Part shown: positions 2,442 to 50,262 of the stretch, one piece after another
Layout of the letters: each line of letters starts with the position of its first letter
How positions within the stretch are numbered: position 1 is the stretch's first letter
DNA from: a virus
Length of the DNA: 64,000 nucleotides
Direction: 5' to 3' (one strand)
IMG/VR virus record: IMGVR_UViG_3300033148_006102
Coordinates: 32,001-96,000 of that record
Program-made: the position numbers and the translations under genes
Notes under the pieces: model-generated
Told to the model about the DNA's origin: nothing
What the model saw: the letters and a program-made list of their open reading frames with translations, nothing else
Database searches by the model: none

Positions 2442-3221
2442 ATGGATACGCTTATTGTAGTTGAGCCGCATTTCGAGCTCATTACACCACGGGAAGATCT
2501 TGGGCGCATGCTGAAACTGCTCGAGGCTGCCGGCCGGACTTGCTACAAGTCTGAGGCAATGATAAAGGAAGACTCGGCCGGCAAGTTCATTCAAGGTATT
2601 GTCAAGCGCGGTCATGAGTCCGTGATCGAGCACTGTGTTATCACAGGGCGTTTTGTGGGCGATAGGACCATGTCGCATCAGCTGGTGCGGCATAGGATCG
2701 CGGCCTATTCACAGGAATCTCAGCGATATTGTGATTATGGCAAAGTCTCAGCCATGCAGATCGTGGCGCCACCGGATACTAGGTTGCCGCCAGGAATATA
2801 CGAACGGGACGAGAACAAGCTTATCCGCTTTACCAAACGTACTGGTGAAGGCCCATTCAGGCTGCAGGCCTACATGGCAGAGGATAATTGGTCTATTGCG
2901 GAAATGGCAATAGCCAAAGCTTTTCTTGGTATCAACTTCGATGCTTACTGGACATATCAGTGGTTGCGCAATCACGGCCTCAAGCCAGAGGACGCGCGGT
3001 TGGTGCTTCCAGGTGGATCCAAGACCGAAGTGGTGACTACCTTCAATTTGCGGATGTGGCGGCACGTGTTTGAGGAACGCGCGCTCAATCCACATGCGCA
3101 GTGGCAAATCAAGAAGATCATGCGCCAAGCATTGGAGATCTTCGGGGAAGAGTTGCCAGAATTGTACGGTGACCAGTTGGAACGCTTGAAGGAACAAGTG
3201 GCAAATGAACAAAGCAGTTGA
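2442..3221 (+). CDS. thyX: flavin-dependent thymidylate synthase
   Basis: GHESVIEH, SHQLVRHR-x-x-x-YSQESQRY, EDARLVLP, NLRMWRH, HAQWQI motifs; AAGGA before ATG 2442. Confidence 0.95.
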   Translation: MDTLIVVEPHFELITPREDLGRMLKLLEAAGRTCYKSEAMIKEDSAGKFIQGIVKRGHESVIEHCVITGRFVGDRTMSHQLVRHRIAAYSQESQRYCDYGKVSAMQIVAPPDTRLPPGIYERDENKLIRFTKRTGEGPFRLQAYMAEDNWSIAEMAIAKAFLGINFDAYWTYQWLRNHGLKPEDARLVLPGGSKTEVVTTFNLRMWRHVFEERALNPHAQWQIKKIMRQALEIFGEELPELYGDQLERLKEQVANEQSS

Positions 3222-3606
3222 TTGTGAAGGGACGGAGTTGCGGCCAGGTGATCTGGTCGCCTCAGCCCCTACGGATGAACAAATCCATTGTGCACGCGTC
3301 GAGGCCATCCTTGAGGAGGAATGGTTGGAATTGAAGCACATGAAGACCGGTGAGAAGTATCAGATGCTAGCGCACGGCACATTGCTCATGAAGAGTAAGA
3401 CGATGACCTACAAGTCGCGCAAACGGCGTCGACGCAAGCCTGATCATCACCGGCGTGCACAGGAACGTCGGCAAAATCATTATCCACCGAAGCCTACAGC
3501 TTCTGAGGATTACAATCCTCAGGCGTACCATAGTGATATGCGTGAGCCGCCGGAACCTGAATATCAATCTGATAACCCGCAGTGCTACCACAGCGACGAA
3601 AGGTGA
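3205..3606 (+). CDS. hypothetical protein, KOW/SH3-like N-terminus and basic low-complexity tail
   Basis: LRPGDLV motif; RKRRRRK; repeated YHSD. Confidence 0.55.
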   Translation: MNKAVDCEGTELRPGDLVASAPTDEQIHCARVEAILEEEWLELKHMKTGEKYQMLAHGTLLMKSKTMTYKSRKRRRRKPDHHRRAQERRQNHYPPKPTASEDYNPQAYHSDMREPPEPEYQSDNPQCYHSDER

Positions 3607-12054: not shown

Positions 12055-14256
12055 ATGTTGCCACCGCATTTACAGAAGATTGCTGTACCGATCAGTCAAC
12101 GACTTCCGACATTAAGCGCGGCAAGTCAAAAGCGCTTGATGCAAGCCGGCGACGTCCCGTTTCAGCCCGTTACTCCAGAAACTACTCAGCAGGGAACCTT
12201 CCCAGGTTTTTTGCATGGTATGCGCGAAGGTATGCGTCAACAGGAGATGCCGCCAATCGTACAGCGTCTGCAGGATTCCATAAAGAAGCATTGGGATATG
12301 TACCAGCAGACGGGTAACGCGCATCATTTTGAAACAGCTAAGCAGTACGAAAACATGCTTCGATCACAGGCCGGTGCGATGGAACGAATCGCACGGGTGA
12401 TGGCCGGACCGCCAGGTGATCGGTACGAAGCGCACTGGATGCAGTACGATTCCATTAGGAAGCGGAAGAAGCGCGAGAAAAAGGAACGGGTAAAAGAAGG
12501 CGATTGGTTTCGCTACCTTGGTGAGCCAGTAGGTCTTCGCATGAAGACTGCGACGTATATTTATCCTGGCGACGAGGTGATTGTCACGGCTGTGAAGCAG
12601 GACAGTGGCGCACCGCTGTATGAATTGATGGCAGCCAAAAACGGCAAGATTGCAGCACCACAACGGATAGATACGTTGGAATCCGTGCCTAACAAAGAAG
12701 CCAAGTACGACGGCCGGCGCGGTCCGAAGATGAAGGCGCTCAAGAAGGGGCGTCGTTCATTGGATCCGGAAGAGCGCAAATTGGTGATGGACCGCGGCGC
12801 GGTATGGCAAAATGGCCCAGGTCACGAAATGTCGCCAGCTGTTTGGAAGTCAGTGGTTGATGGTAAAACATGGTACGTCTGCAACACACATAGAGCTATG
12901 AATGTATCACCTACGCTCAAGGGTGCGATTCGCAACTATGATTTCATCAAGACAACAGCTGGATTGAAGGAAGCTGGGTTTAGTCGCAAGATGCTGGGCA
13001 ACTTGGCGACCAGTATTCTTTTAGGTGGGCCAGCGGCATTGGGCGCACTGGGTACAGGTGCAGCAACAGCAGGTCTTGGTTCCGCCATGCCATTTGTTGG
13101 TGGTATCGCAGGTGGCACGCTCGGCCGCGCAATATTTGGTGATAAAGCCAACAAGATCATGCAGTGGGCGCATGCGCCGACGTTGAAGGATATCAAGAAA
13201 AAGCTCAAGAAGCAGGCTCCGCATTTGTCTCCAGAAGAGCAATTATCCTTGGCAAAACAGCATCATGCATATTTGGAGGCCATGCGAAAGGGCAAGACCG
13301 CCGCAGAAGAAAAGAAGGATAGTAAGCCATTAGCGCCGATGCGTGATATAGGCTTGGGTGTAGCCGGTGCTGGCGGCGGATTTTACGGATTGGATAGATT
13401 ATCTAGCGCCATTCTTCGTTCGGCGGGAGAAGGTGACCCAGAGCAGATGTCACCACATGATTTCATGCGACGCTACTACGGTCCTGACTACGAAGACGAC
13501 GTACGTGCAGCTCGTGCATATACGGAAGAAGGAAAGATGCCGAGCGGCGTCACGGAAATGGACTGGGATAGATTTGATCGTGAAGTACCAGTATATCGAT
13601 CATCGCCAGAAGCCATGCAGGCTATCGCCAGTGCGCCGGTACATGGACTTCGTGCGCGTACGCCATTAACCGGTGAAGATATCGTCCTTATGCGTAAGGG
13701 TTATGGGGAAAGTTCGCCGGAGTACAACACCACACTCGGAGAAGAATTGACGCATGCCGGGCAAAAAACGACGTTGCCTGGTCGTTTGGCCGAGTTCTTC
13801 CAGAATGCGATTACTGGCGGAGGGGATTTCAGCGATTATTATAATCGTTCGGAAGAACTGGGACCACGTTACGCGCATGCACGTCGTATGTATGAAATGC
13901 ACACTGGAAACGATGTGCGGTCACCTGAAGATGCCATGAAGGCCGTTCACTGGTATGCTAGTCAGCTTGAGAAGAATGAAGCTGGTGAGGAATTGCCGAG
14001 CACGTTTGAAATACGTGGTGATGAAGATCGTTGGATGCCGCGGCAGGATGCAAGAGGCGCATGGGAATGGGATGAAGATCATGCACATCCGTTTAACCAC
14101 CAAGATCTACCAACACCTACGGAGCGTGCTGAAGAAATGGCACAAGCGATGCCGGGGCTCATTTCGTACGAAGTCCCGCCTCACATGCAGGACATGCTGC
14201 CACCAGGAGCACTTACTGAAGATATGTTCGCGTCCGGTCCGGCGCATATGGTGTAG
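12055..14256 (+). CDS. large multi-segment (polyvalent-like) probable virion protein with zincin-like motif
   Basis: ATG 12055 chosen because the track start overlaps the previous gene; Gly/Ala hydrophobic segments; EELTHAGQ...YYNRSEE motif; several KxA motifs. Confidence 0.6.
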   Translation: MLPPHLQKIAVPISQRLPTLSAASQKRLMQAGDVPFQPVTPETTQQGTFPGFLHGMREGMRQQEMPPIVQRLQDSIKKHWDMYQQTGNAHHFETAKQYENMLRSQAGAMERIARVMAGPPGDRYEAHWMQYDSIRKRKKREKKERVKEGDWFRYLGEPVGLRMKTATYIYPGDEVIVTAVKQDSGAPLYELMAAKNGKIAAPQRIDTLESVPNKEAKYDGRRGPKMKALKKGRRSLDPEERKLVMDRGAVWQNGPGHEMSPAVWKSVVDGKTWYVCNTHRAMNVSPTLKGAIRNYDFIKTTAGLKEAGFSRKMLGNLATSILLGGPAALGALGTGAATAGLGSAMPFVGGIAGGTLGRAIFGDKANKIMQWAHAPTLKDIKKKLKKQAPHLSPEEQLSLAKQHHAYLEAMRKGKTAAEEKKDSKPLAPMRDIGLGVAGAGGGFYGLDRLSSAILRSAGEGDPEQMSPHDFMRRYYGPDYEDDVRAARAYTEEGKMPSGVTEMDWDRFDREVPVYRSSPEAMQAIASAPVHGLRARTPLTGEDIVLMRKGYGESSPEYNTTLGEELTHAGQKTTLPGRLAEFFQNAITGGGDFSDYYNRSEELGPRYAHARRMYEMHTGNDVRSPEDAMKAVHWYASQLEKNEAGEELPSTFEIRGDEDRWMPRQDARGAWEWDEDHAHPFNHQDLPTPTERAEEMAQAMPGLISYEVPPHMQDMLPPGALTEDMFASGPAHMV

Positions 14257-42521: not shown

Positions 42522-42593
42522 GGCACACCCGCATGGTGCGGACTTGCCTCTCATAAGGGCAAAGATTGAGTTCGATTCTCAGGTGTGCCACCA
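42522..42593 (+). tRNA. tRNA with CAU anticodon (Ile2 or Met), reduced D-arm
   Basis: GGCACAC/GTGTGCC acceptor, CTCATAA loop, CCA end; no U8. Confidence 0.75.
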
Positions 42594-44701: not shown

Positions 44702-44776
44702 GGGCTCATAGTTCAATTCGTAGAACAGCTGACTCATAATCAGCCGATCTCGGTGCAAATCCGGGTGAGCCCACCA
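44702..44776 (+). tRNA. tRNA-Met(CAU), elongator-like (Met or Ile2); T-loop TGCAAAT
   Basis: GCTGA-CTCATAA-TCAGC, CCA end. Confidence 0.85.
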
Positions 44777-47435: not shown

Positions 47436-49031
47436 ATGGCGAACAAGTCAATTTTCAGCACCCAGCGGGGGCCTGTACATCGACAGTACGGGGAAAGTGT
47501 GAAGACCGTTGATACGGTCAATGAGGCAGGCGGAGAGGCTTACAGCTTCACAGCAAAGTCTGCATTGGCGCAGTTGGCATCGACGGGCTGCTTTGGCAAC
47601 ACGTTCTATGTGAATGCCAAGAGTCAGCTTGACAAGGTTCAGGAATTGTTGCCACAGGTTGACAGCGAGTTTTTGGCCAAGCTGGCCGTATATGCCCGCC
47701 AGAAGGGTTACATGAAGGACATGCCGGCGCTCATGCTCGCGTATCTCTTCGCGCATGCGAAGGATTCTGCGACAGTTGGCGCGTATTTCAAGGCAGCGTT
47801 CCCGGAGGTCATGGACAATGGCCGTATGTTGCGAAACTTTGTCCAGATCATCCGTAGTGGCGTCACCGGGCGTAAGTCGTTCGGTACGGCCGGCAAGCGT
47901 GTGATCCAGGACTGGTTGACTAACCGGTCATACTGGAAGTTGTTCGGCGAAGCAGTTGGCAATGATCCGTCGATGTGTGATGTGCTCAAGATGACGCGGC
48001 CGCATCCAAAGGATGATGAGCAGCGTGCATTGTTTGGTTACATCACTGATGCGAAGGAAGGTTGGGACCGCGAGGCTCTGCCGGACTTCGTGAAGGAATT
48101 TGAGGCCTTCAAGCAGGATCAGACCAAACCTGTACCGAACGTTTCATTCGAACGGTTGTCTGCCCTTCCGCTTGGAAAGGAACACTGGATCGAGATCGCC
48201 AAGAAGGCGACTTGGTTCCAGACGCTCAAATCTCTTAACACGTACAAGCGTCATGGGGCGCTTGAGCATTCTGATGTTGTCGACATTGTCGCTGAGCGTT
48301 TGGCAGATCTTGAGTTGGTCAAGAAGGCCAAGGTATTTCCGTACCAGATCTTTGTGGCTTACAAGGCCGCGAATGACCTGCCACGGAAGATTACTAATGC
48401 GCTGCAGGATGCGCTGGAGCACGCGCTCCGAAACATCCCATTTTATGAGGGCCAGGTTTACATCTTCCCAGATGTTTCCGGCTCAATGTTATGGGGTAAC
48501 TTGACAGGTCATTCGCAGAGTTCAATTCGTTGTATTGACGTGGCGGCATTGATCACCGCGGCGATCATGAAGACGAACTATCTGGCGGAAGTACTTCCGT
48601 TTGATACACGCGTGCATGATGCGAAGTCATTGAATCATCGTGATTCAGTAGTACGCAACGCAGAGATCTTGTCGCGCTTTGGCGGTGGCGGAACGTACTG
48701 CGAGCTTCCGCTGCGTGAACTGAACGACCGTAACGCGAAGGGCGACCTGTTAATCTACGTCTCGGATAACGAGTCGTGGGTCGGCGCCGGCTATCGCAGC
48801 CATACAGGCTTGCTCAATGAGTGGGCGAAGTTCAAGCAGCGTAACCGGCAGGCCAAGATGGTCTGCATTGATCTGCAGGCTAACACCAGCACGCAGGCAA
48901 CGGATACGCCGGACATCTTGAATGTCGGTGGATTCTCTGATCAGGTGTTCAACGTTATCGACGCCTTTTTGAAGGGTGGATCTGATAAGGAACATTGGGT
49001 CAAGGAAATCGAGAAAGTTTATCTAGGATAG
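47436..49031 (+). CDS. rsr: Ro60/TROVE-domain RNA-binding protein
   Basis: NEAGGEAY...GCFGNTFY...LAVYARQKGYMKD; C-terminal vWA with DVSGSM, SDNESW, VGGFSDQVF. Confidence 0.92.
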   Translation: MANKSIFSTQRGPVHRQYGESVKTVDTVNEAGGEAYSFTAKSALAQLASTGCFGNTFYVNAKSQLDKVQELLPQVDSEFLAKLAVYARQKGYMKDMPALMLAYLFAHAKDSATVGAYFKAAFPEVMDNGRMLRNFVQIIRSGVTGRKSFGTAGKRVIQDWLTNRSYWKLFGEAVGNDPSMCDVLKMTRPHPKDDEQRALFGYITDAKEGWDREALPDFVKEFEAFKQDQTKPVPNVSFERLSALPLGKEHWIEIAKKATWFQTLKSLNTYKRHGALEHSDVVDIVAERLADLELVKKAKVFPYQIFVAYKAANDLPRKITNALQDALEHALRNIPFYEGQVYIFPDVSGSMLWGNLTGHSQSSIRCIDVAALITAAIMKTNYLAEVLPFDTRVHDAKSLNHRDSVVRNAEILSRFGGGGTYCELPLRELNDRNAKGDLLIYVSDNESWVGAGYRSHTGLLNEWAKFKQRNRQAKMVCIDLQANTSTQATDTPDILNVGGFSDQVFNVIDAFLKGGSDKEHWVKEIEKVYLG

Positions 49032-49036
49032 GAATT

Positions 49037-49178
49037 TGGGGCGAATGCGGACGGGATTACATTGATTCATAATCCGTTGGTCGGAGGTTCGAATCCTTCC
49101 CTCGCCACCACTATGGCGAGGTAGCTCAGTCTGGTAGAGCAGCGTATATGTCAAATCTCGTCGATTCTCGTCGCCCCA
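49037..49178 (+). ncRNA. Y RNA (YrlA-like) containing a permuted tRNA-Met
   Basis: TGGGGCGA/TCGCCCCA outer stem, GAATGC...TACATT motif, T-arm then capped acceptor then D-arm. Confidence 0.8.
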
Positions 49179-49195
49179 TCCTTTTCCTTCTTATT

Positions 49196-49274
49196 TGGGT
49201 GAATGCCGGTATGGGAGTACATTTCTGCGTGTAATGCTGAACCATGACCACTCTCTACCATCTTTCGTCACCCA
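49196..49274 (+). ncRNA. Y RNA 2 (no tRNA-like domain)
   Basis: TGGGTGA/TCACCCA stem, GAATGCCGG...GTACATT, 3' TCGTC. Confidence 0.7.
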
Positions 49275-49285
49275 CCCTTTTGAAA

Positions 49286-49353
49286 TGGCCGAATGCCGAT
49301 TGGACTACATTGTATCCATCACAAACAACGTCTAATCATAAGCTCGTCGGCCA
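49286..49353 (+). ncRNA. Y RNA 3 (no tRNA-like domain)
   Basis: TGGCCGA/TCGGCCA stem, GAATGCCGA...CTACATT, 3' CTCGTC. Confidence 0.7.
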
Positions 49354-49362
49354 TTTTCTTTT

Positions 49363-49759
49363 GGGGGTGAGTAGGATCGACTGGTCGTTACTGACTGGAA
49401 GAAGCGTGTCGCAGTTGACCAACACCTGCGTTATCAAGATGGTCGCAAACCCAGATGGCAACATCCATCACATGAGCGATTACGCTCGTCCGCAGCTTCA
49501 GGCTGCATAAAGGACAGCTCCGACCAGGTAGCTACCACACCTGGCTGCGGGATACCAACCCAAGGTGAGAAACCAAACAGAGTTAGGTCGGTGAACATGC
49601 CGCAGAGGGGATTCACCATCGAAGTTACGGCGGATAAGGCGTGACCGGGCTGTCGTCGGCTCAGAGGATCGCTCGAAAACATAGATGACGACTACACACG
49701 TAGAAGTGCCGGAATGATCGATACAGCACACGGGGTGCGACTCCCCGTCACCTCCACCA
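49363..49759 (+). ncRNA. ssrA: tmRNA; predicted tag (A)ANPDGNIHHMSDYARPQLQAA
   Basis: GGGGGTGA...GGATCGAC 5' end, G3:U70, T-arm plus TCCACCA 3' end, tag ORF 49445-49510 ending in AA. Confidence 0.9.
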
Positions 49760-50184: not shown

Positions 50185-50262
50185 TGCGGGGTGGAGCAGT
50201 CTAGTCAGCTCGCAAGGCTCATAACCTTGAGGTCGTCAGTTCAAATCCTTCCCCCGCCACCA
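50185..50262 (+). tRNA. trnfM: initiator-type tRNA-fMet(CAU) with disrupted T-stem
   Basis: GCGGGGTGGAGCAG...GCTCATAACC...TTCAAAT...CCCCGCCACCA; 1:72 mismatch; T-stem GTCAG/CCTTC has 2 of 5 pairs. Confidence 0.7.

What the first reader, a model, noticed from the sequence alone, without database searches (positions are those of the whole stretch)
49064..49144. Y RNA 1 contains a complete circularly permuted tRNA-Met, with anticodon loop and CCA
SEEN: placing 49115-49144 in front of 49064-49110 gives GGCGAGG TA GCTC AGTCTGGTA GAGC A GCG|GA TTCATAA TCCGT TGGTC GGAGG TTCGAAT CCTTC CCTCGCC A CCA. This is a fully paired 77-nt tRNA(CAU) broken between nt 29 and 30, with its CCA joined to its 5' end by a 4-nt linker (CTAT). 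ESTABLISHED: YrlA mimics tRNA D, T and acceptor arms in permuted order; permuted tRNA genes are known from some algae and archaea. INFERENCE: either a snapshot of YrlA arising from a real tRNA, a decoy displaying a CAU anticodon loop to anticodon nucleases, or a latent tRNA that could be released by cleavage and ligation.
Basis: partly seen in the sequence, partly recalled or inferred. Interest (0 to 1): 0.82.

Follow-up and report, generated by a model that had tools for sequence, protein, structure and literature searches.

The report
Phage Y RNA mimicking a whole tRNA
The small RNA gene after this phage's Ro60 gene is a YrlA-type Y RNA whose tRNA-like part really does include an anticodon-type loop and a CCA, but about half of its relatives in bacteria and phages have the same loop with other "anticodons", so it is an ordinary family member and not a hidden tRNA-Met.

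Summary
Joining 49115-49144 to 49064-49110 gives a 77-nt sequence that ARAGORN calls tRNA-Met(CAT). The native order gives no tRNA call.

The element (49038-49178) is a YrlA-class Y RNA that starts 7 nt after a Ro60 gene in a 195-kb phage. It matches Rfam YrlA at 64.9 bits (cut-off 69), and the loop region appears as a 15-nt insertion against the consensus.

The feature is not special to this RNA:
- Of 75 YrlA modules beside bacterial Ro60 genes, 40 have the same split 5-bp stem with a 7-nt loop.
- Those loops keep Y32, U33, R37 and A38 (37-39 of 40 each) but carry 22 different triplets at 34-36.
- Clear orthologues differ only in the triplet.
- Twelve of 23 phage modules show the same arm. 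CCA follows the discriminator in 13 bacterial and 7 phage modules.

CAU is one draw from a free triplet. The snapshot, decoy and latent-tRNA readings lose support.

What remains is a modest point. The stem-loop Chen et al. (2014) called "V" is better described as an anticodon-arm mimic. The scan has reported related un-permuted Y RNAs on other DNA, but not this loop signature.

The parts
47436..49031 (+). Ro60 (Rsr) orthologue, 531 aa
   Evidence: Pfam vWA_Ro60 (E 1.4e-14) and TROVE (E 2.6e-8). ORF. It is 46-51% identical to Ro60 of Acidobacteriota, Verrucomicrobiota and Myxococcota.
49038..49178 (+). YrlA-class Y RNA ('Y RNA 1'), whole gene
   Evidence: Rfam RF02553 hit at 49038-49180, 64.9 bits, E 1.3e-14, model positions 1-114. 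The terminal stem 49038-49044 / 49171-49177 appears in the fold.
49040..49047 (+). GGCGAATG, which matches the GNCGAAN0-1G motif proposed to contact Ro60
   Evidence: Sequence. The motif is defined in Chen et al. 2014, PMC4201824.
49050..49063 (+). 5' strand of the Ro-binding stem (GACGGGATT) plus the conserved YUAY/TACATT junction motif
   Evidence: It pairs with 49154-49162. TACAT is nearly invariant in the 70-row alignment A2. YUAY is described in PMC4201824.
49064..49077 (+). Anticodon-arm mimic: nt 30-31 (GA), the 7-nt loop TTCATAA (49066-49072, triplet CAT at 49068-49070), and nt 39-43 (TCCGT)
   Evidence: It shows as a 15-nt insertion against the Rfam consensus. It corresponds to the 'V' stem-loop of Chen et al. 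2014.
49078..49099 (+). Variable loop TGGTC and T arm (GGAGG-TTCGAAT-CCTTC)
   Evidence: The T helix is 100% paired with covariation in A2.
49100..49121 (+). 7-bp acceptor-like stem (CCTCGCC / GGCGAGG) closed by the loop A73-CCA-CTAT. The inferred RNase P site lies between 49114 and 49115.
   Evidence: The acceptor helix is 99.6% paired with changes on both sides at all 7 pairs. The CCA and TAT linker class is described. The RNase P precedent is M. smegmatis YrlA (PMC4201824).
49122..49144 (+). nt 8-9 (TA), D arm (GCTC-AGTCTGGTA-GAGC), A26 and nt 27-29 (GCG), which pair with 49075-49077
49145..49177 (+). 3' strand of the junction, the Ro-binding stem and the terminal stem
   Evidence: Fold and structure evaluation.

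Best explanation
Window 49038-49178 encodes a YrlA-type Y RNA, the partner RNA of the phage Ro60 gene that ends 7 nt upstream. Its ends pair into the Ro60-binding stem, which carries the GNCGAAN0-1G motif. Its middle is a circularly permuted mimic of a complete tRNA, in the order T arm, 7-bp acceptor stem closed by the loop A-CCA-CUAU, then D arm. The Ro60 stem joins through a three-way junction in the 5' strand of the anticodon stem, between nt 29 and 30. Three stem pairs therefore come from the 3' half (GCG:CGU), and two pairs plus the 7-nt loop come from the 5' half (GA-UUCAUAA-UC). This split anticodon arm is a normal feature of about half of all YrlA modules in both bacteria and phages. 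Selection keeps the loop's size and its U-turn signature (Y32, U33, R37, A38) but not the triplet. CAU is therefore incidental and 'tRNA-Met' is only a label. The following steps are inferred, not shown. The RNA is co-transcribed with Ro60. RNase P probably cuts at UAU|G49115, as it does in M. smegmatis YrlA. The linker is then trimmed back to the encoded CCA. The result would be a two-piece, Ro60-bound RNA whose tRNA shape serves as a stable handle or docking surface for tRNA-binding factors, not as a decoder.
For: Shown here:
- The ORF upstream is Ro60.
- The full-length Rfam YrlA match has E 1.3e-14.
- The permuted sequence is a canonical cloverleaf.
- In phage relatives, 12 of 23 modules have a strict anticodon arm against 1.0 in shuffles. 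Eight have U33 and R37 against 0.15. Seven have CCA against 0.57.
- Beside bacterial Ro60 genes, 40 of 75 YrlA modules have the arm with a 7-nt loop, against 5-7 for loops of 5, 6, 8 or 9 nt, and a shuffle mean of 2.5 (max 8).
- Loop composition in those 40 is Y32 in 39, U33 in 39, R37 in 37 and A38 in 37, with 22 different triplets.
- The junction always leaves 2 or 3 nt on the 5' side.
- CCA occurs in 13 bacterial modules, and 8 modules are complete with a 7-bp acceptor, CCA and the arm.
- In an unfiltered 70-row alignment, the lower anticodon helix is 86.7% paired and the upper one 75.8% paired, both with changes on both sides. The whole structure scores 0.72 on covariation, against 0.18 shuffled and at most 0.15 slid.
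- There is no promoter or terminator consensus between the Ro60 stop and the downstream tmRNA.

From the literature:
- M. smegmatis YrlA has a 7-bp acceptor stem, is cut by RNase P and carries CCA in vivo.
- Many YrlAs have a 'V' stem-loop after a conserved YUAY (PMC4201824).
Against: - The Rfam score (64.9 bits) is below the curated cut-off of 69.
- RNAalifold on the unfiltered alignment calls the T, acceptor and D helices but not the two anticodon half-helices.
- The nearest-neighbour model prefers a fold in which CAUA of the loop pairs with UAUG of the 3' strand. That fold scores -55.5 kcal/mol, against -47.3 for the tRNA-like fold, and the 2-bp GA/UC closure costs +2.3.
- No close relative of this particular Y RNA exists in the collections searched. 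Conservation of CAU over short distances could therefore not be tested.
- The modules counted are related to each other, so shuffle statistics overstate independence.
- No expression, processing or binding data exist for this uncultivated phage.
Confidence: 0.8

Rival explanations
1. Snapshot of origin: this Y RNA was recently built from a real tRNA-Met gene, for example from a tandem pair of tRNA genes. It still carries the donor's anticodon loop and CCA because they have not yet decayed.
For: The permuted 77-mer is a flawless cloverleaf. Its best full-length database matches are annotated phage tRNA-Met genes at 82-86%. All 28 tRNAs of this phage encode CCA, and several pairs lie 1 nt apart. 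The spacer CCA-CTAT-G also occurs between ordinary tandem tRNAs in metagenomes.
Against: The phage's own tRNAs are at most 74% identical. The best of 2,183 tRNAs reaches 0.83, and non-Met tRNAs (Lys, Asn, Ile, Phe) score the same. Other YrlA modules reach 0.80. The same junction position and loop signature occur in YrlAs of several bacterial phyla, so the layout is old and maintained, not transitional.
Confidence: 0.06
2. Decoy: the CAU loop is displayed to soak up or misdirect host anticodon nucleases (VapC-, PrrC- or colicin-type enzymes) that attack tRNA-fMet or tRNA-Met during infection.
For: The RNA sits in a phage island with 28 tRNAs and a tmRNA. The loop has the U33/R37 U-turn signature that such enzymes see. 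Triplets that vary between lineages could in principle reflect an arms race.
Against: The same loops occur in chromosomal YrlAs of free-living bacteria, which have no phage interest. The triplets include ATG, ATC, AAA and AAT, which, as far as I know, no bacterial tRNA uses as an anticodon. No nuclease or immunity gene was linked to the RNA. Only 2 bp close the loop in this copy.
Confidence: 0.06
3. Chargeable split tRNA: after RNase P cleavage and trimming, the free ACCA end together with CAU, the main identity mark for methionyl-tRNA synthetase, lets the Ro60-bound RNA be aminoacylated. It could then engage EF-Tu or the ribosome, much as tmRNA does.
For: The module has a 7-bp acceptor stem, A73, an encoded CCA and a canonical CAU loop. 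M. smegmatis YrlA is cut by RNase P and carries CCA, and its authors raised possible aminoacylation (PMC4201824). CCA is enriched in the family, with a conserved TAT before G1.
Against: Most family members lack CCA (62 of 75 bacterial modules). Their triplets are unconstrained, so charging cannot be the general function. The anticodon stem is interrupted by the large Ro60 stem. No data on processing exist.
Confidence: 0.05
4. Latent tRNA: two cuts at 49063|49064 and 49144|49145 followed by ligation would release a circular or re-joined RNA. That RNA would mature into a working tRNA(CAU), as in the permuted tRNA genes of some algae and archaea.
For: The sequence is complete and collinear after permutation.
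Against: The 195-kb genome has no RtcB or Rnl2-type ligase. The flanks of the break form the Ro-binding stem. Both of its bulges lie on the same strand, so it is not a bulge-helix-bulge motif (and by inspection). The phage already has three tRNA(CAU) genes. Homologues carry triplets that would make useless tRNAs.
Confidence: 0.02

Closest known systems
YrlA of Salmonella Typhimurium (Rfam RF02553; Chen et al. 2014, PMC4201824; crystal structure in Wang et al. 2018, bioRxiv 10.1101/312249)
   Same: It lies beside Ro60. It has the GNCGAAN0-1G motif near the 5' end and a conserved YUAY. The T arm, closed acceptor-like stem and D arm come in the same permuted order, and the ends pair into the Ro60 stem.
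   Different: The Salmonella RNA has a 6-bp acceptor-like stem and no CCA, and is stated to lack the anticodon loop. The window's RNA has a 7-bp stem, A73-CCA and a 7-nt anticodon-type loop. That loop shows as a 15-nt insertion against the Rfam consensus.
YrlA of Mycobacterium smegmatis (Chen et al. 2014)
   Same: It has a 7-bp acceptor-like stem. It is cleaved by RNase P in vitro and in vivo, and the 5' half ends in CCA. This is the precedent for a two-piece, tRNA-ended Y RNA.
   Different: There the CA is added after cleavage, whereas here CCA is fully encoded and followed by a 4-nt linker. I did not examine whether the mycobacterial RNA has the anticodon-arm mimic.
The 'V' stem-loop of YrlA RNAs (Chen et al. 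2014, Fig. 1-2)
   Same: It is the same element: a less conserved stem-loop between the YUAY motif and the T arm, present in many but not all YrlAs.
   Different: It was read as the tRNA variable arm. My counts fit an anticodon arm better: a 4-5-nt variable loop still follows it, the loop is 7 nt with Y32-U33-NNN-R37-A38, and the stem is 5 bp once the 2-3 pairs from the strand after the D arm are added.
Two-piece (circularly permuted) tmRNA genes (Rfam RF04321)
   Same: The gene order is T arm, acceptor 3' strand, CCA, a short intervening loop, then the acceptor 5' strand. It is processed into two base-paired pieces with a free CCA. One search shows a weak local match over exactly this part (17.8 bits, E 0.16).
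   Different: The window's RNA has no mRNA-like reading frame or pseudoknots, and its partner is Ro60 and not SmpB. The score is far below the family cut-off of 47.
Circularly permuted tRNA genes of Cyanidioschyzon merolae and some archaea (from my own knowledge; not checked in a paper here)
   Same: The 3' half of a tRNA is encoded upstream of the 5' half, with CCA or the acceptor ends joined by a short linker.
   Different: Those genes yield working tRNAs through a bulge-helix-bulge endonuclease and a ligase. Here the termini form a Ro60-binding stem, no such machinery is encoded, and the triplet is unconstrained in homologues.
Un-permuted 'tRNA-shaped' Y RNAs beside Ro60 genes, reported earlier in this scan on other genomes
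   Same: They are a complete tRNA body with the Ro60-binding module joined at the anticodon stem, and they lie beside Ro60 in phages and bacteria.
   Different: Those have true tRNA ends and the Y module replaces the anticodon loop. Here the gene is permuted, the acceptor end is closed by a loop, and an anticodon-type loop is kept beside the Y stem. I did not test those reports.

Membership tests
YrlA (Rfam RF02553) | Score at or above the curated gathering threshold of the covariance model (69 bits) | tested here: inconclusive
   The score is 64.9 bits with E 1.3e-14, and all 114 model positions are matched. The shortfall coincides with a 15-nt insertion (the anticodon-type loop) and a longer acceptor loop.
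YrlA (Rfam RF02553) | Encoded next to a Ro60/Rsr gene | tested here: met
   The RNA starts 7 nt after the stop of a TROVE plus vWA_Ro60 protein.
YrlA (Rfam RF02553) | GNCGAAN0-1G motif near the 5' end, and 5' and 3' ends paired | tested here: met
   GGCGAATG lies at 49040-49047. The terminal stem is 49038-44 / 49171-77, and a 9-bp stem pairs 49050-58 with 49154-62.
YrlA (Rfam RF02553) | Conserved T-like and D-like stem-loops with an acceptor-like stem-loop between them, in the order T-AS-D | tested here: met
   These helices are 99.6-100% paired, with covariation, in 70 aligned modules that include the window.
YrlA (Rfam RF02553) | Binds Ro60 in vivo, and the T and D loops carry tRNA modifications | not testable with these tools
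   This needs immunoprecipitation and modification mapping.
Functional tRNA-Met gene (ordinary or permuted) | A contiguous cloverleaf, or, for permuted genes, termini that form a processing motif (bulge-helix-bulge) with matching endonuclease and ligase | tested here: not met
   ARAGORN finds no tRNA in the native order. The termini form the Ro60 stem, with both bulges on the same strand. The genome has no RtcB or Rnl2-type ligase.
Functional tRNA-Met gene (ordinary or permuted) | Anticodon conserved among homologues | tested here: not met
   There are 22 different triplets among 40 bacterial modules and 9 among 12 phage modules. Orthologous series differ only in the triplet.
Permuted (two-piece) tmRNA (RF04321) | Covariance-model match including the mRNA-like domain and pseudoknots | tested here: not met
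   There is only a local match of 17.8 bits (cut-off 47) over the T arm and acceptor. The real tmRNA of the phage lies at 49363-49759.

The most novel reading that the evidence does not exclude
The anticodon-arm mimic is a working part of many YrlAs. An unknown partner, such as a synthetase, EF-Tu or the ribosome, a modification enzyme or a tRNA-sensing defence protein, would read the whole tRNA shape, including a U-turn loop. In the CCA class, to which this phage RNA belongs, RNase P would then turn the Y RNA into a Ro60-tethered split tRNA with a free CCA end. That RNA could be charged or bound like a tRNA, linking Ro60 RNA surveillance to the translation machinery during infection.
Probability: 0.12. 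Interest if true: 0.7.

Novelty: new member of a known kind. Interest (0 to 1): 0.35.

Why it matters
For this window the result is mainly a correction. The striking "hidden tRNA-Met" is a regular YrlA, and its CAU carries no special meaning.

The comparison does add something for people who work on Ro60 and Y RNAs. The tRNA mimicry of YrlA is more complete than the Salmonella structure suggests:
- About half of the modules I could parse keep an anticodon-type arm, with the canonical loop size and U-turn signature.
- A sizeable minority also encode CCA behind a 7-bp acceptor stem, with a conserved TAT before G1.

This narrows the search for the still unknown partner of the YrlA tRNA-like domain to factors that read the whole tRNA shape. 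It also gives concrete constructs to test, such as loop deletion, triplet swaps and CCA mutants.

Tried and rejected
- ARAGORN over all possible junctions of every candidate (12,292 constructs). It called tRNAs with many different anticodons for the same RNA, so it is too permissive to discriminate. I replaced it with a strict rule: all 5 pairs formed, a 7-nt loop, and at least 2 closing pairs from the 5' side.
- The Ro60-based fetch from viral contigs (L005-L011, 45% identity). These loci gave no Rfam hit at E below 0.01, so they were of no use for comparison.
- The MFE fold, in which the loop's CAUA pairs with UAUG of the 3' strand. L016 cannot form the same pairing, so I treat it as incidental. 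It remains listed as evidence against.
- The alternative hairpin GGATTA/TAATCC (49054-59 / 49070-75). It is shared with L046 but not with other homologues, and I did not pursue it.
- First metagenome scan for close relatives: no hits. The second scan returned tandem tRNAs and unrelated YrlAs only.
- Searches for RtcB and Rnl2-type ligase in the phage genome were both negative.
- RNAalifold on the unfiltered alignment did not call the anticodon half-helices. I counted the named pairs instead.
- The 2020 Annual Review on bacterial Ro60 and Y RNAs (PMC10870794) is not held. I cannot exclude that it already describes the anticodon-type loop.
- Typing the tRNA as Met, fMet or Ile2 from identity elements. 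I dropped this because the triplet proved unconstrained in the family.

Full report
**What is there**

The window is bases 32001-96000 of a complete 195,108-bp phage genome with terminal repeats. It carries 28 tRNA genes and a tmRNA. An ORF at 47436-49031 encodes a Ro60 orthologue with TROVE and Ro60 vWA domains. Seven bases after its stop, Rfam's YrlA model matches 49038-49180 over its whole length at 64.9 bits and E 1.3e-14, just under the curated 69 bits. In that alignment the bases auugauucauaaucc (49061-49075) are an insertion relative to the family consensus.

**Checking the observation**

Placing 49115-49144 in front of 49064-49110 gives 77 nt that ARAGORN calls tRNA-Met(cat), with all four arms, A73 and CCA. 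The native order gives no call. The feature is real.

The name "Met" rests only on the triplet CAU. The best full-length matches in phage records are annotated tRNA-Met genes at 82-86%, but tRNA-Lys, -Arg, -Asn and -Thr genes match about as well over 91-96% of the length. The D arm, variable loop and T arm are of a very common type.

**Relatives**

No close relative of this phage or of this Y RNA exists in the collections I could search. The nearest Ro60 is 50% identical, and two metagenome scans found nothing close. I therefore compared the RNA with the wider family.

A pattern built from the Ro-stem motifs and the T loop returned 72 phage loci. Two further patterns added more. A Ro60 protein alignment returned 80 bacterial Ro60 loci, mainly from Acidobacteriota, Verrucomicrobiota, Myxococcota and Planctomycetota.

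I parsed every permuted module by tRNA numbering, anchored on the T arm, the acceptor hairpin and the D arm. I excluded anything inside a normal tRNA called by ARAGORN.

**The decisive result**

The anticodon-type arm is common.

| Measure | Observed | Control |
|---|---|---|
| Phage modules with the Ro-stem motifs that have a fully paired 5-bp stem around a 7-nt loop, with at least two closing pairs from the 5' side | 12 of 23 | shuffle mean 1.0, max 5 in 2000 |
| Of those, with U33 and R37 | 8 | shuffle mean 0.15 |
| Phage modules with CCA after the discriminator | 7 of 23 | shuffle mean 0.57 |
| Bacterial YrlA modules with the same arm and a 7-nt loop | 40 of 75 | 5-7 for loops of 5, 6, 8 or 9 nt; shuffle mean 2.5, max 8 |

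The phage figures are and the bacterial figures.

In the 40 bacterial loops, position 32 is a pyrimidine in 39, position 33 is U in 39, position 37 is a purine in 37, and position 38 is A in 37. Positions 34-36 use all four bases and give 22 different triplets.

The junction always leaves 2 or 3 nt of the 5' strand on the 5' side. The Ro60 stem therefore enters between nt 28|29 or 29|30, as in the window.

Orthologous series show the drift directly:
- Pyrinomonadaceae copies share the stem GC...GCCGC but have loops CTCATAA, TTGATAA, TTATCAA and CTTCCAA.
- Phage copies share CC...GGACG but have ATCATAA, ATCACAA and ATGTTAA.

**Independent structural support**

I aligned 70 modules chosen without regard to whether they have the arm. 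RNAalifold recovers the T, acceptor and D helices with heavy covariation, but it does not call the two anticodon half-helices. About a third of the rows are gapped there.

Counting the named pairs gives 86.7% pairing for the lower helix (GC 17, CG 13; CG 16, GC 9, AU 8). The upper helix is 75.8% paired, with many changes on both sides. The whole structure has a covariation score of 0.72, against 0.18 in shuffles and at most 0.15 when partners are slid.

The nearest-neighbour model does not favour the tRNA-like fold of the window's RNA (-47.3 against -55.5 kcal/mol), and the 2-bp closure costs 2.3 kcal/mol. That model ignores tRNA tertiary contacts and protein, so I count this as a caution only.

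**Comparison with the literature**

Chen et al. 2014 defined YrlA, the GNCGAAN0-1G motif and a conserved YUAY. [quoted passage not shown] They showed that M. smegmatis YrlA has a 7-bp acceptor stem, is cut by RNase P and ends in CCA.

Wang et al. [quoted passage not shown]

The window's feature is the "V" stem-loop. My counts argue that it is an anticodon-arm mimic, because a normal 4-5-nt variable loop still follows it and its loop has the anticodon-loop size and signature. I could not read the 2020 Annual Review, so this reinterpretation may already be in print.

- Snapshot of origin. The module is no closer to real tRNAs (best 0.83 of 2,183; the phage's own at most 0.74) than to other YrlA modules (best 0.80). 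The layout is shared across phyla.
- Decoy. The same loops occur in bacterial chromosomes, and the triplets include ATG, ATC, AAA and AAT, which, as far as I know, no bacterial tRNA uses as an anticodon.
- Latent tRNA. The phage encodes no RtcB or Rnl2-type ligase. The termini form the Ro60 stem. The phage already has three tRNA(CAU) genes.

**How it most likely works**

Shown:
- It is a YrlA-type RNA beside Ro60.
- It has all tRNA elements in permuted order.
- The anticodon-type arm and, in a subset, CCA are family features under some constraint.

Inferred:
- It is co-transcribed with Ro60, because no promoter or terminator consensus lies between them.
- RNase P cleaves at UAU|G49115. In the CCA class the linker ends in TAT before G in 9 of 13 bacterial copies, and L055b has the identical CCACTAT.
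- The linker is trimmed to the encoded CCA.
- The resulting Ro60-bound two-piece RNA uses its tRNA shape for stability or docking.

**Verdict**

The RNA is a new member of a known kind. Earlier entries of this scan describe related un-permuted Y RNAs on other genomes. None of those listed mentions the loop signature.

Noticed in passing
window 49196-49275 and 49285-49353: Two further short RNAs directly after Y RNA 1 share its GAATGC...TACATT 5' motifs but lack a full tRNA-like module. Rfam gives no credible hit for them; the only match is a chance-level one to UCA1. Other first-stage notes on this genome cover them.
   Followed up: no
window 42522-42593, 44702-44776, 50185-50262: The phage has three ARAGORN tRNA(CAT) genes. 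The one at 42522 has no Rfam tRNA hit at gathering score. All 28 tRNAs encode CCA, and several pairs are separated by a single base.
   Followed up: no
L019 (module near 3058), L040, L045, L073, and L028/L043/L065/L074/L079: Some phage YrlA modules have a tRNA-Leu-type D arm (GGCGGAAtTGGtAGACGC) and a hairpin in the position of a long variable arm. They mimic class II tRNAs and not the usual class I type.
   Followed up: partly
L012 (Klebsiella phage KP13-26, OP617743.1) 2984-3086 and 3127-3231: Two unannotated, weak YrlA-like RNAs (40 and 32 bits) lie in the tRNA array. They sit after a 476-aa 'hypothetical protein' that hits DUF2828 and DUF7788 and not TROVE. The first has the loop A-CAA-CTAC, close to the window's A-CCA-CTAT, but no anticodon-type loop.
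   Followed up: partly
L046 (532-kb viral contig) around 12586-12660: A Y RNA after a Ro60 gene (43% identical) shares the 12-mer TTCATAATCCGT with the window, and its TACATT motif overlaps the loop. After the T arm the acceptor and D parts seem to be missing or rearranged.
   Followed up: no
L345, L376, L362, L333, L336 (bacterial Ro60 loci): Single bacterial Ro60 loci carry three to five YrlA-type modules in tandem downstream of the gene. Each has a different acceptor stem and loop triplet.
   Followed up: no
window 47436-49031: The phage Ro60 is as close to Ro60 of soil Acidobacteriota (Pyrinomonadaceae, Blastocatellia; 50-51%) as to any phage Ro60. This may hint at the host range or the source of the gene.
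   Followed up: no
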